Shown here in pieces: positions 40,024-42,352 of a stretch of DNA of 64,000 nucleotides; the stretch's first letter is position 1; each line of letters begins with the position of its first letter. The notes below the pieces were generated by a model. It was not told the origin of the DNA and made no database searches. It saw only the letters and a list, made by a program, of their open reading frames with translations. The stretch is from IMG/VR virus record IMGVR_UViG_3300033150_001135, positions 28,146 to 92,145 of that record; one strand, written 5' to 3'. Position numbers and translations under genes: made by a program. This DNA comes from a virus.

Positions 40024-40239
40024 GACAGCATGAAAGAGAATTGGCAGTTCCTACAAAATAAGACATTGCGTATGCCTACTACTGCCCGCTGTCGAATAAA
40101 TGCTTGCAGAGGATGTTCCTACTTAGAAACTGATACTTTCTGCTTACATCCCGTAAGCATCATAAATTATGTGGTTAGTAGCCAGCATAAAACGGTTCCT
40201 ACTATATTAACCCACTTACACCACATACCGTTCGCTGGC
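40024..40239 (+). ncRNA. Array of three covarying stem-loop RNAs with conserved GTTCCTAC and variable 22-25 nt loops
   Basis: Units 40024-40093, 40100-40160, 40181-40239; inner stems GGCAGT/ACTGCC, GGATGT/ACATCC, AACGGT/ACCGTT; unpaired C; outer stems GACAGC/GCTGTC, ATGCTTGC/GTAAGCAT, GCCAGC/GCTGGC. Confidence 0.8.
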
Positions 40240-40261
40240 ATTTTAAAAGGAGAATCGTAAC

Positions 40262-42352
40262 ATGGAAAACTATTATATTCCTGCATTACGGCTTTTTAGA
40301 AGTGTAGTTGTACCGGATATTGGAGGAAAAGTTAGTAAGGAGAAGTTTGAGGAAGTAGCAGAAAAGACTGTAAAACGAGGTTACATTTTTTCTCCTGAAG
40401 TTTTGGCTCACTACTACGATCATGTTGATAAGATCGTTGAAGCTGTGGAAACGTTGTATGGGATGTCAGCAGAGAAACTTAATGCATCCTTTCATAAGTC
40501 ATGGAAAAAAGTAAGAGATACAAATCTTGAGGACTTGATAGTACAACAGCTGGCACATTATCTTACTACTTATGGGAAAGAGAGTCCTGGTGCTTACGTG
40601 GAAGAGAAAGAATGGCAATGGAATGTAGAGAATTTAGCAGAAAAGATTGTTTCTTTAGATGATTTTGAGTCAGATAAGCTATTGGATAGAGACTACGTTT
40701 ACATTCCTAGTGAGGAACTTAAGATACCGGAATTAGGAGTGGGAGGTATCGTTAAGTTGGTTATTATTCGAGGACTTACGAAAGAAGTGATATGTGAGAA
40801 GTTGGTAACATTCCTCAGTACTGGTATAGCGTTAAAAGAACAAACTGTAAAAGATGTTCTAACTGTGGCGGAAATGGTTGGTTTTGAAGAAATTGAGAAA
40901 GTAAAGAATAAGGAAGTTCGATGTGCATTATCCTCAAAGTTAGAAATTGTACCCCGTGACCCAGTTGAGTTTCTTAGAGTAGCTTTGTATGTAGCTACCG
41001 GAAGTACTTTGATCATAAAAAGTAGTGACTTAATGGAACGGATAAGGAATACCGAGAAAGGAAAAGAAGTTCGAGCAATATTTGATAAGTATATATGGAA
41101 GTATGAATTATCATATCTTGCTAGTATCTTTTACCGGTTTAAACCATTGTTTCTTGCTTTCAGGTATATTGATAAGGATTTGAGGAGAACTATTAATATA
41201 ATCAGGCGACAAGCTCCAAAGTACCATAAACCAATGAAAGTGGATTATTTGAATACAATTACTGAGAAACTTCAACAGCAGAAACCTGTATGTAAAAAAG
41301 AAATGGAGGAAGCTTTAGAAAGAGTTAACATATTTAGAAAGATACGGCTAGCATACGCACTCAAGTTTCGAATGGCTGAGCCTGAGTCGGTATTGTATAG
41401 AATACGAAATGGTAGTGCTTGGGCAACTGGTTGTAAGGTTAGAGAAGGAACAAGTTACGAGTTGTATAAAACGTTTTCTGTGGTGAGGGATTCTATTGTA
41501 CACGATCTCCTAAAAGCAACTAAAGAAAAACGAATTTTTATACCAGACTATATTAACTATGCGTTACCAGCTACTGAGAAACAGTTTACCGGTAACTTAC
41601 CATCAGGAACTTTTATAGAAGTAAAAAGTGAAGACTTAATTGTAGGAGTACATTGGGAAAATGTTAAACGTGACAAAAAGATGACATCCGATGAAGTAGT
41701 AGCAGACGCTATTTGGGGGAGTGAGGGGGACAAGGATAGTAGGCGAATTGACTTAGATTTTTCTATCATTACTGCTGATCGTGGTAAGATAGGTTGGGAT
41801 GCAAGGTATAGTACTAAGGATCAGGATATTTTGTTTTCTGGTGACTTAACTGATGCAAAGAAACCAAAAGGAGCTACAGAGTTATTCTATATTCGAAGAC
41901 AACCAGCAAAAACAATGCTTTTTAACCTCAACTACTTCAACTATACTGCTGGGGTGGAAGTTCCATATAAGATTTTTGTAGCTAGTGAGAAAGTGGCAAT
42001 GTTAGGAGAAAACTATATGGTTAATCCAAACAATGTGATTTTGTCGGTTAGTTCTATGATTAACAAGAAGCAGCAGATCGTAGGTTTGCTTATACCAGGC
42101 GAAGAGATTTGTAGATTTTACTTTATAGAAACTAATATAGGAGTTTCTGTTACAGCGGTGGATTCAGAAATATCACAACATGCTAGACAATACTTGGTTG
42201 ACTACTATAAGAATACAATTGGACTACGGGAGTTGTTGGTAGATGCGGGAGCAGTATTGGTTGAGGATAAGGAGGATGCTGAGCTTGATCTGTCGCCAGA
42301 GGCTTTGGAAAAGGATACAATTATTAATCTAGTAAAAGGAGAGAATGGATGA
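40262..42352 (+). CDS. Large helical protein with C-terminal TerD-like domain
   Basis: 696 aa; GVHWEN, IDLDFS, IGWD and FSGDLTDA..GATE resemble divergent TerD metal-binding motifs. Confidence 0.55.
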   Translation: MENYYIPALRLFRSVVVPDIGGKVSKEKFEEVAEKTVKRGYIFSPEVLAHYYDHVDKIVEAVETLYGMSAEKLNASFHKSWKKVRDTNLEDLIVQQLAHYLTTYGKESPGAYVEEKEWQWNVENLAEKIVSLDDFESDKLLDRDYVYIPSEELKIPELGVGGIVKLVIIRGLTKEVICEKLVTFLSTGIALKEQTVKDVLTVAEMVGFEEIEKVKNKEVRCALSSKLEIVPRDPVEFLRVALYVATGSTLIIKSSDLMERIRNTEKGKEVRAIFDKYIWKYELSYLASIFYRFKPLFLAFRYIDKDLRRTINIIRRQAPKYHKPMKVDYLNTITEKLQQQKPVCKKEMEEALERVNIFRKIRLAYALKFRMAEPESVLYRIRNGSAWATGCKVREGTSYELYKTFSVVRDSIVHDLLKATKEKRIFIPDYINYALPATEKQFTGNLPSGTFIEVKSEDLIVGVHWENVKRDKKMTSDEVVADAIWGSEGDKDSRRIDLDFSIITADRGKIGWDARYSTKDQDILFSGDLTDAKKPKGATELFYIRRQPAKTMLFNLNYFNYTAGVEVPYKIFVASEKVAMLGENYMVNPNNVILSVSSMINKKQQIVGLLIPGEEICRFYFIETNIGVSVTAVDSEISQHARQYLVDYYKNTIGLRELLVDAGAVLVEDKEDAELDLSPEALEKDTIINLVKGENG

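What the first reader, a model, noticed from the sequence alone, without database searches (positions are those of the whole stretch)
40024..42352. Second, unrecognised RNA array nested in the TIGR locus: three covarying stem-loops plus a 696-aa TerD-like protein
Seen: three tandem units share one architecture despite different stem sequences. Each has an outer stem ending GC, an A-starting internal loop, a 6-bp inner stem ending GT, invariant TCCTAC, a variable 22-25 nt loop, T-AC closing the stem, a single unpaired C, and the outer stem. Full compensatory change in both stems indicates selected RNA structure. The array lies between TIGR array 1 and the RBS of the 696-aa gene, probably on one transcript. 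Inference: a protein-bound scaffold presenting variable guide or decoy loops (a Ro60/Y-RNA-like or new RNA-guided RNP) partnered with the helical + TerD-like protein. This is my best candidate for an undescribed system.
Basis: partly seen in the sequence, partly recalled or inferred. Interest (0 to 1): 0.88.

Follow-up and report, generated by a model that had tools for sequence, protein, structure and literature searches.

The report
Y-RNA-like handle RNAs with TerD-fold partner
Three small folded RNAs sharing one conserved "handle" sit in front of an unannotated 696-residue phage protein, and the same RNA-protein pair recurs in phages, bacteria and archaea, often among tRNA or RNA-repair genes, so it is probably an undescribed counterpart of the Ro60/Y-RNA particle.

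Summary
Units at 40024-40093, 40100-40160 and 40181-40239 share one architecture: an outer stem closed by C-G, a 5' A-rich internal loop opposite a single bulged C, a 6-bp inner stem closed by G-C and U-A, and a loop starting UCCUAC.

A covariance model built from relatives finds 229 copies in the window plus 83 phage loci and 143 in 80 bacterial and archaeal loci. Every copy is on the strand of a homologue of the 696-aa gene, and nearly all lie within about 600 nt of it. Covariation is strong (98.5% of cells paired; 377 double-sided changes).

The apical part is modular. It can be a plain loop, a hairpin, an anticodon-stem-loop mimic (unit 2 reads like tRNA-Ile GAU), or a YrlA-type permuted tRNA-like domain that matches Rfam RF02553 below threshold.

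The protein has a new helical N-terminal domain and a TerD-fold C-terminal domain. It has no Pfam or PHROG match and no sequence homology to TROVE/Ro60. In 23 of 80 cellular loci RtcB lies just upstream.

I read it as a Ro60/Y-RNA-like particle, not an RNA guide and not a part of TIGR-Tas. This scan has already noted the same pair on at least eight other genomes. New here are the nesting inside a TIGR-Tas locus and the anticodon mimic.

The parts
39746..39774 (+). Best sigma-70-like promoter match (TTGATT-17-TATAAT, 10/12), upstream of TIGR array 1. Possible start of a transcript that runs through array 1, the three RNAs and the gene.
   Evidence: This is a consensus match only. The count of such sites is not above the shuffles. 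No + strand terminator-like site lies between here and 44600.
39786..40010 (+). TIGR array 1 (36-nt period). Context, not part of the module.
40024..40093 (+). Handle RNA unit 1. Atypically long 13-nt 5' internal loop; plain 26-nt apical loop.
   Evidence: R2 hit at 40035-40092, 25.5 bits, E 0.002.
40100..40160 (+). Handle RNA unit 2, a canonical handle (internal loop AGA). The apical loop holds a 5-bp stem and 7-nt loop at 40125-40141 that reads like an anticodon stem-loop with anticodon GAU (Ile).
   Evidence: (z -4.75). R2 hit of 51.8 bits, E 1.6e-10.
40181..40239 (+). Handle RNA unit 3 (internal loop AUAA); unstructured 24-nt apical loop.
   Evidence: R2 hit of 32.0 bits, E 3.7e-5.
40247..40252 (+). 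Ribosome-binding site AAGGAG, 9 nt before the ATG of the 696-aa gene.
   Evidence: read directly from the sequence.
40262..41551 (+). N-terminal helical domain of the 696-aa protein (residues 1-430). It carries invariant basic and aromatic motifs such as FHKSW.K, F.RFKP, FRKIRLAYAL and RIRNG. I propose it as the handle-binding part.
   Evidence: invariant columns. (model pLDDT 83, pTM 0.74). (no Foldseek PDB match at E <= 0.001). (the only long match is phage Ro60 9l5y_B: Z 6.1, 213 residues, rmsd 5.4).
41618..42196 (+). TerD-fold beta-sandwich domain (residues about 453-645), with invariant DLD.S and SGD..DA motifs.
   Evidence: Foldseek probability 1.0 to 2kxt, 3ibz, 2qz7. (2qz7_B: Z 11.6, 147 residues, rmsd 3.3; 2kxt: Z 10.8). 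(invariant D497 L498 D499 S501 S526 G527 D528).
42197..42352 (+). C-terminal helices of the protein, and the stop codon.
42433..42700 (+). TIGR array 2 (context). It is followed by a ParB-like gene (42770-43468) and a Tas-like gene (43446-44231).

Best explanation
The three units are small non-coding RNAs of a widespread, uncatalogued family. I call them handle RNAs.

Each has a constant handle:
- an outer stem closed by C-G;
- an internal loop of 5'-A(U)A opposite a single bulged C;
- a 6-bp helix closed by G-C and U-A;
- an apical loop that begins UCCUA and ends in U.

The apical module is exchangeable. The handle is the docking site for the protein encoded next to it (696 aa here), which has a novel basic helical domain and a TerD-fold domain. 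The fixed 6-bp spacing between the two conserved patches suggests that the protein reads both ends of that helix.

The particle displays the apical module. In different copies this is a plain loop, a stable hairpin, an anticodon-stem-loop mimic (unit 2 here) or a YrlA-type tRNA-like domain.

By position the pair takes the place that Ro60 and Y RNAs have in rsr-yrlBA-rtcBA operons. In cellular genomes it sits in RtcB-RNAs-protein(-RlaP) operons. In phages it sits among tRNA genes. So the most likely job is surveillance, protection or repair of tRNA-like RNAs, or decoying enzymes that attack them, during phage-host conflict.

In this phage the RNAs are probably cut out of a transcript that starts upstream of TIGR array 1.

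Shown: the structure, the covariation, the linkage to the gene, the folds and the neighbourhoods. Inferred: binding, processing and function.
For: - **Linkage in phages.** Model R2 gives 229 hits in the window plus 83 phage loci, all on the gene strand. Nearly all lie within about 600 nt upstream of the homologue or just downstream of it. 79 of 83 loci have hits, and the 4 without are cut off at the gene's 5' end.
- **Linkage in cells.** There are 143 hits in 71 of 80 bacterial and archaeal loci, again all on the gene strand and upstream.
- **Whole-record searches.** Hits cluster at the gene in S-CRM01; S-CBWM1 has one beside the gene and one about 2.5 kb upstream; Phass-1 has five near the gene and three about 10 kb away. 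There are none in Bxz1, which has a canonical Ro60. The window's own 92-kb record has only these three.
- **Covariation.** 98.5% of cells are paired, with 377 double-sided changes and 0 of 500 shuffles reaching the observed score. Slid partners pair in only 36-54% of cells. Invariant positions cluster at the internal loop and at the loop base.
- **Partner specificity.** No protein neighbour is conserved in phage loci, so the RNA is the gene's only constant partner.
- **Modular tops.** Long units fold into a T-arm, a closed acceptor-like stem and a D-arm, and match Rfam YrlA at E 8e-8 to 1e-4. Anticodon-like stem-loops occur in 7 of 137 distinct units against 1.0 +/- 1.0 in shuffles, with 0 of 500 shuffles reaching 7.
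- **Context.** tRNA genes on the same strand in 20 of the 60 phage loci scanned. RtcB lies upstream on the same strand in 22 of 80 cellular loci (23 have the family; one copy is on the opposite strand), RlaP downstream in 9, and a divergent WYL regulator in 14.
- **Protein.** It has a TerD fold, invariant Arg/Lys/aromatic motifs in the helical domain, and a large unannotated family of at least 1383 clusters at 50% identity.
- **Precedent.** Ro60 with Y RNAs next to RtcB (PMC4201824, PMC7790460), and a phage Ro60 with Y-like RNAs (PMC12135203).
Against: - No binding, expression or processing data exist. Everything rests on co-occurrence and analogy.
- The protein has no detectable sequence homology to TROVE (hhalign probability 0.1). 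The structural match to Ro60 is weak (Z 6.1), so the analogy may be only superficial.
- The handle lacks the GNCGAA Ro-binding motif.
- The window's phage record has no tRNA genes in the window and no RtcB in its 92-kb record, so the RNA-repair context is borrowed from relatives.
- Five cellular loci with at least 300 nt of upstream sequence have no hit.
- The alignment used for pair counts was fitted to the model, which inflates pairing somewhat.
Confidence: 0.75

Rival explanations
1. The units are cis-acting operators in the 5' leader of the gene's own mRNA. The protein, or another factor, binds them to control translation or stability, and there is no free-standing RNA.
For: The last unit ends 22 nt before the ATG, with the RBS in between. 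Most copies lie directly upstream on the same strand. No terminator-like site separates them from the gene.
Against: In several loci the array lies downstream of the gene (L011, L051, L073, L015, L001, L050), or 1-10 kb away (L003/Phass-1, L007). There can be up to 8 or more tandem copies, each with a different top. Some tops are full YrlA-type tRNA-like domains, which known Y RNAs carry as free RNAs. In cellular operons the RNAs sit between RtcB and the gene. The two roles are not exclusive.
Confidence: 0.12
2. The units are an accessory RNA of the TIGR-Tas system in which they are nested, for example a processing or loading signal or a second class of guide.
For: They lie between TIGR array 1 and array 2, probably on one transcript. 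A second phage (L073) has ParB, Tas and TIGR arrays directly next to its copy of the pair. L080 has a Tas-like gene downstream.
Against: 81 of 84 phage loci have the pair with no Tas match within the 3-kb flanks held, and none of the top 22 neighbour clusters in the 80 cellular loci looked like a Tas, though no Tas search was run on those loci. In L073 the order differs, with the RNAs downstream of the gene and outside the arrays. The units share nothing with the 36-nt TIGR repeat. The loops match nothing in the phage genome.
Confidence: 0.05
3. The elements act as DNA, for example as hairpin-forming sites for recombination, replication or a mobile element, and the gene next to them encodes the DNA-binding factor.
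For: They are tandem inverted repeats next to a gene of unknown function. The - strand folds about as well as the + strand in the window.
Against: All 372 hits are on the gene strand. G-U pairs are tolerated at several positions, for example 15 of 137 at pair 3-161, and these would be A-C mismatches on the other strand. The tops include tRNA-like domains with T-loop and D-loop sequence. The pair lies among tRNA genes and RtcB.
Confidence: 0.03

Closest known systems
Ro60 (Rsr; TROVE + vWA) with bacterial and phage Y RNAs, especially YrlA/YrlB of the Salmonella rsr-yrlBA-rtcBA operon (PMC4201824, PMC7790460) and Thermus phage phiLo Ro60 with Yrl1/Yrl2 (PMC12135203)
   Same: - One large helical protein followed by a cation-binding-type domain, encoded next to one or more small RNAs.
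- Each RNA has a constant protein-binding stem and a variable module.
- Some modules are the same permuted tRNA-like domain as in YrlA.
- The pair is often adjacent to RtcB in cells and is present in phages.
   Different: - The protein has no TROVE match in Pfam or by profile-profile comparison.
- It has a TerD fold where Ro60 has vWA/MIDAS.
- The handle (C-G, AUA opposite C, 6 bp, UCCUA) is unrelated to the GNCGAA/GGUCCGA Ro site, and the bulged C is on the 3' strand.
- The RNAs come in arrays of up to 8 or more.
- The Ro60-bearing phage Bxz1 has no handle copies.
Rfam RF02553 (YrlA, Y RNA-like)
   Same: Long-loop relatives align over the T-arm, the closed acceptor-like stem, the D-arm and the short connecting helix (37-48 bits).
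   Different: All scores are below the 69-bit gathering threshold. The basal stems do not align. The three window units have no tRNA-like domain and give no Rfam hit at all.
TerD family proteins (tellurite-resistance TerD, PDB 2kxt, 3ibz, 2qz7)
   Same: The C-terminal domain has the TerD beta-sandwich fold and keeps DLD.S- and SGD-type motifs.
   Different: TerD proteins are about 190-aa stand-alone domains in ter operons. Here the domain is fused to a 430-aa helical domain, linked to RNAs, and gives no Pfam TerD hit.
TIGR-Tas systems
   Same: The two are physical neighbours here and in L073. Both are tandem arrays of small RNAs in a phage.
   Different: There is no 36-nt repeat-spacer organisation and no dependence on Tas across loci. 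The structure and the partner protein both differ.

Membership tests
Y RNA / YrlA (Rfam RF02553) | Match to the Rfam covariance model at or above the gathering score (69 bits) | tested here: not met
   The window at 39500-43000 gives no YrlA hit at E <= 10. The best relatives reach 37-48 bits, with E 8e-8 to 1e-4.
Y RNA / YrlA (Rfam RF02553) | tRNA-like domain (T-arm, acceptor-like stem, D-arm) | tested here: not met
   The window units have 23-26-nt loops without it. It is present in some units of relatives: L043, L034, L026, L053, L049 and L020.
Y RNA / YrlA (Rfam RF02553) | Ro-binding motif GNCGAAN0-1G, or GGUCCGA, in the basal stem (PMC4201824) | tested here: not met
   The consensus of 150 handles has no such motif. 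The window has one GTCGAA at 40091-40096, in the spacer after U1. It lacks the trailing G and is not conserved.
Y RNA / YrlA (Rfam RF02553) | Encoded next to a TROVE-domain (Ro60) gene | tested here: not met
   The adjacent gene has no TROVE match.
Ro60 / TROVE (PF05731) | Sequence match to the TROVE profile | tested here: not met
   Pfam gives 0 families for the protein (E <= 0.1) and no TROVE among 30 homologues scanned at E <= 10. hhalign of the family profiles A1 and A6 against a 28-member TROVE alignment A7 gives probability 0.1. A profile search of PDB sequences gives nothing.
Ro60 / TROVE (PF05731) | HEAT-repeat ring fold | tested here: inconclusive
   The N-terminal model has pLDDT 83. 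Foldseek finds no PDB match at E <= 0.001 (best 1.5e-2, low TM). In the VIA-align wide search, the phage phiLo Ro60 chain 9l5y_B is the only long match (Z 6.1, 213 residues, rmsd 5.4, rank 42).
Ro60 / TROVE (PF05731) | C-terminal vWA domain with MIDAS | tested here: not met
   The C-terminal domain has a TerD fold.
TerD domain | TerD beta-sandwich fold | tested here: met
   2qz7_B gives Z 11.6 (147 residues, rmsd 3.3) and 2kxt gives Z 10.8. Foldseek gives probability 1.0.
TerD domain | Sequence match to the Pfam TerD profile | tested here: not met
   No Pfam hit (E <= 0.1 for the protein itself; E <= 10 for 30 homologues). Invariant DLD.S and SGD motifs are visible by eye. Their likeness to the TerD calcium sites is recalled from memory, not tested.
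TIGR-Tas | 36-nt repeat-spacer array with conserved repeat ends | tested here: not met
   The repeat families cover 39786-40037 and 42433-42703 only. The three units are not members.
TIGR-Tas | Co-occurrence with a Tas gene across loci | tested here: not met
   A Tas homologue lies next to the pair in only 3 of 84 phage loci: the window, L073 and L080.

The most novel reading that the evidence does not exclude
A protein unrelated in sequence to TROVE, carrying a TerD fold, together with modular handle RNAs, forms a second and independently evolved Ro/Y-type particle. The particle is shared by phages, bacteria and archaea. It displays tRNA pieces (anticodon arm, or T-arm/acceptor/D-arm elbow) as baits or decoys for tRNA-cleaving or tRNA-modifying enzymes, and it feeds damaged RNAs to RtcB. 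In this phage it is co-transcribed with a TIGR-Tas system.
Probability: 0.4. Interest if true: 0.9.

Novelty: new variant of a known kind. Interest (0 to 1): 0.8.

Why it matters
Ro60 with Y RNAs is so far the only known particle of its kind, and its role in bacteria is still poorly understood. A second particle, built from another protein but with partly the same tRNA-mimicking RNA tops and the same RtcB neighbourhood, would have three consequences.

- It would show that 'protein handle plus displayed tRNA piece' is a general solution in RNA damage control.
- It would give function to a protein family of at least 1383 clusters at 50% identity and an RNA family with hundreds of copies, neither of which is in Pfam, PHROGs or Rfam.
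- It would offer simple tests of how phages protect or imitate tRNAs under attack by host anticodon nucleases.

The handle is short and well defined (about 30 constrained nucleotides). It could therefore also serve as a portable protein-docking tag.

Tried and rejected
- **Rfam.** A search of the window region with permissive filters gave only a chance thermometer hit inside the gene.
- **tRNA scan.** ARAGORN found no tRNA in the window.
- **Family libraries.** Pfam and PHROGs gave nothing for the protein. A profile search of PDB sequences also gave nothing.
- **Model R1.** I built it with a structure string shifted by two columns. It was never used, and R2 replaced it.
- **Guide hypothesis.** The three window loops were searched against the phage's own 92 kb. 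The best hit was a 13-nt match at E 0.015, about what chance gives. The host genome is unknown, so host targets could not be tested.
- **TROVE homology.** It was sought by Pfam, by hhalign against a TROVE alignment built from the Bxz1 Ro protein, and by fold search. Only a weak structural match appeared. BFVD gave only distant members of the same family, in a Campylobacter phage, a Lactobacillus phage and a 'tellurium resistant like' protein.
- **TIGR arrays in other loci.** TRF found none. Reading L073 by eye did find them. L080 showed none.
- **Literature.** Searches on TerD, phage structured RNA, YrlA in phages, and RtcB/RlaP/TROVE found no description of this pair. The survey of RNA-repair systems by Burroughs and Aravind (2016) is not held. 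I could not check whether it mentions the protein.
- **The 188-aa ORF at 39694-40260.** It runs through TIGR array 1 and the three RNAs and has no family match. I treat it as spurious.
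Full report
**What is in the window**

The stretch lies in a phage record of 92 kb, about 67% complete. From left to right it holds:

- a family-A DNA polymerase gene with fused uracil-DNA glycosylase and exonuclease domains (37205-39718);
- a promoter-like site at 39746-39774;
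- TIGR array 1, with a 36-nt period (39786-40010);
- the three stem-loops;
- an AAGGAG ribosome-binding site at 40247-40252;
- the 696-aa ORF (40262-42352);
- TIGR array 2 (42433-42700);
- a ParB-like gene and a Tas-like gene.

The outer stem is 6-8 bp and is closed by C-G. The 5' internal loop starts with A and is 13, 3 and 4 nt long in the three units. The inner stem is 6 bp and is closed by G-C and U-A. The loop then begins UCCUAC and continues for 23-26 variable nucleotides. A single bulged C lies between the two 3' strands. The stems differ completely in sequence between units but stay paired.

**Is it more than chance?**

Three units alone would not settle it. Two of the three fold no better than shuffles. 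The octamer GTTCCTAC is only mildly enriched in the window. The decisive evidence comes from relatives.

The 696-aa protein has no Pfam or PHROG match. It nevertheless belongs to a very large unannotated family:

- at least 1531 hits in the word-indexed search;
- 1383 clusters at 50% identity in the exhaustive search;
- homologues in cyanophages S-CRM01 and S-CBWM1 and in the gut phage Phass-1.

I fetched 80 IMG/VR loci around homologues of 34-52% identity. A plain search for the octamer already found it just upstream of the gene in many of them, within the same stem architecture.

I then built covariance model R2 (11 base pairs) from eight of these foreign copies plus window unit 2.

- R2 finds 229 matches in the window plus 83 phage loci.
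- Every match is on the strand of the gene.
- Nearly all lie in tandem arrays of 2 to 8 or more within about 600 nt upstream, or directly downstream.
- 79 of 83 loci have matches. The other four are contigs that break off at the gene's 5' end.
- In the window's own record, only the three units match.

**Covariation**

On the 150 best matches (137 distinct), 98.5% of cells form standard pairs. Nine of eleven pairs show changes on both sides, in 377 cells. None of 500 column shuffles reaches the observed covariation score. Sliding the 3' partner by 1-3 columns drops pairing to 36-54%. This alignment was fitted to the model, which favours pairing, but the margin is large.

The invariant nucleotides form two patches. 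One is the closing C-G, the first and third A of the internal loop, and the bulged C. The other is the G-C and U-A pairs with UCCUA, plus a U at the 3' end of the loop. The two patches are always 6 bp apart. G-U pairs are tolerated, and all copies share the gene's strand. The element is therefore RNA read from the + strand, not a DNA site.

**The variable top**

Most units carry 20-30 nt of A/U-rich loop, and some carry stable hairpins. About a dozen units have 80-125-nt inserts. These fold into a T-arm, a closed acceptor-like stem and a D-arm. They match Rfam YrlA, the tRNA-like Y RNA of bacteria, at E 8e-8 to 1e-4. That is below the gathering score, and only the tRNA-like part aligns.

Among the short units, 7 of 137 hold a 5-bp stem with a 7-nt loop of the anticodon-loop form (pyrimidine, U, three bases, purine, any base). 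Mononucleotide shuffles of the same loops give 1.0 +/- 1.0, and none of 500 reaches 7. Window unit 2 is one of the seven: the hairpin at 40125-40141 reads as an anticodon arm with GAU (Ile). The others read UUU twice, UGA twice, GUU and CCA.

The tops are therefore often pieces of tRNA. The handle itself is not tRNA-like, and it lacks the GNCGAA Ro-binding motif described for bacterial Y RNAs (PMC4201824).

**The protein**

The full-length model (pLDDT 80) has a C-terminal beta-sandwich that matches TerD structures. 2qz7_B gives Z 11.6 over 147 residues at rmsd 3.3, 2kxt gives Z 10.8, and Foldseek gives probability 1.0. The motifs DLD.S and SGD are invariant in the family.

The N-terminal 430 residues, modelled alone with 80 homologues (pLDDT 83, pTM 0.74), have no Foldseek match at E <= 0.001 in the PDB. 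In the exhaustive structural search all top rows are 60-80-residue helical-bundle matches, with one exception. That exception is the Ro60 of Thermus phage phiLo (9l5y_B), which aligns over 213 residues at Z 6.1 and rmsd 5.4. This is a lead, not proof.

Profile-profile comparison with a TROVE alignment that I built from the Bxz1 Ro protein gives probability 0.1. So the protein is not a detectable TROVE member. It is either an analogue or a relative beyond recognition.

The helical domain is rich in invariant Arg, Lys and aromatic residues. That fits RNA binding but does not show it.

**Neighbourhoods**

In phage loci no protein-coding neighbour is conserved. The RNA array is the gene's only constant companion. 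In 20 of the 60 phage loci scanned, the pair lies among tRNA genes on the same strand.

The family is also present in cellular assemblies. The scan found 266 relatives, and I fetched 80 loci. They include Chryseobacterium, Tenacibaculum, Ktedonobacter, cyanobacteria, Planctomycetota and Desulfobacterales. They also include archaeal metagenome-assembled genomes labelled Promethearchaeota, Nanoarchaeota and Pacearchaeota. Some of these may be prophages or mis-binned viral contigs.

R2 finds 143 handles in 71 of these 80 loci, all on the gene strand and just upstream. Other genes recur there:

- 22 loci have RtcB immediately upstream on the same strand (23 have the family; one copy is on the opposite strand);
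- 9 have an RlaP nucleotidyltransferase downstream;
- 14 have a divergent WYL regulator.

This is the place that Ro60 and its Y RNAs occupy in the Salmonella rsr-yrlBA-rtcBA operon (PMC4201824, PMC7790460). As a control, the Ro60-encoding phage Bxz1 has no handle copy in its 156 kb.

**How it most likely works**

The handle is the docking site for the adjacent protein, and the top is what the particle displays. The repeated use of tRNA pieces, the tRNA-gene context in phages and the RtcB context in cells all point the same way. They suggest surveillance, protection, repair or decoying of tRNA-type RNAs. Ro60 with YrlA and the phage phiLo Ro60-Yrl-PNPase complex (PMC12135203) are the nearest worked examples.

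- Shown here: the structure, the covariation, the linkage, the folds and the neighbourhoods.
- Inferred: the binding, the processing from a transcript that probably starts at 39746-39774, and the biological role.

The window's phage has no tRNA genes in the window and no RtcB in its 92-kb record. Its version would have to act on host components.

**Relation to TIGR-Tas**

The pair is nested between two TIGR arrays here. In L073, a related phage with Tas 55% and ParB 50% identical, the order is TIGR array, ParB, Tas, TIGR array, homologue, then four handle RNAs downstream. L080 has a Tas-like gene just downstream. Three of 84 loci seems many for so rare a system (I have no background rate), but it may reflect shared synteny or a common hot spot for RNA genes. 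The other 81 phage loci show no Tas within their 3-kb flanks, and no Tas-like neighbour stood out in the cellular loci (not searched directly). I therefore treat the nesting as an insertion, not a functional unit, and leave it open.

**Novelty**

Rfam 15, Pfam, PHROGs and the searchable literature do not describe the RNA, the protein or the pair. One relevant survey (Burroughs and Aravind 2016) could not be read.

This scan has already reported the same pair on at least eight other genomes, with the same reading. My analysis had reached that reading on its own evidence before I read those notes. I then tested their claims of RtcB linkage, cellular distribution and tRNA pieces.

I class the finding as a new variant of a known kind: a Ro/Y-type particle with a different protein and a different handle.

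Noticed in passing
L073:1140-5086: A second phage has ParB (1295-1984), Tas (1984-2778) and TIGR arrays with the same repeat ends as the window's (about 1140-1240 and 2780-2890). These lie directly next to its copy of the protein (2989-4833), with four handle RNAs downstream (4825-5086). This gives TIGR-Tas next to the pair in 3 of 84 phage loci (L080 has a Tas-like gene at 5058-5972).
   Followed up: partly
window 40125-40141: The top of unit 2 is a 5-bp stem with the loop CUGAUAC. That is an anticodon-arm look-alike reading GAU (Ile). Similar mimics in relatives read UUU, UGA, GUU and CCA.
   Followed up: partly
window 39694-40260: A 188-aa open frame runs through TIGR array 1 and all three RNAs. 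It has no family match and is most likely not a gene.
   Followed up: partly
window 37205-39718: The family-A DNA polymerase carries an N-terminal uracil-DNA glycosylase-superfamily domain and a 3'-5' exonuclease domain in one 837-aa protein.
   Followed up: no
Phass-1 record OQ749652.1, 105673-107238 (- strand): Three further handle copies lie about 10 kb from the gene in Phass-1, apart from the five that lie 1.3-1.7 kb downstream of it. So handles can be dispersed in a genome.
   Followed up: no
L134, L135, L136, L138, L120: Five cellular loci (four gammaproteobacterial: two Granulosicoccaceae-type MAGs, Marinicella and Alcanivoracaceae; plus Geminocystis) have the protein at about 30-35% identity but no handle hit at E < 0.1. 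The handle may have diverged there or may be missing.
   Followed up: no
window 43446-44231: The Tas-like protein gives only a weak Pfam hit to the IS110-family transposase C-terminal region (E 0.006), and a PHROG 'transposase' hit (E 1e-38).
   Followed up: no
L143:2233-4001 and L158:926-4001: In Chryseobacterium the order is: WYL-WCX regulator (divergent), RtcB, two or three handle RNAs, the helical/TerD protein, and in some species RlaP. Cultured strains with this operon would suit experiments.
   Followed up: partly
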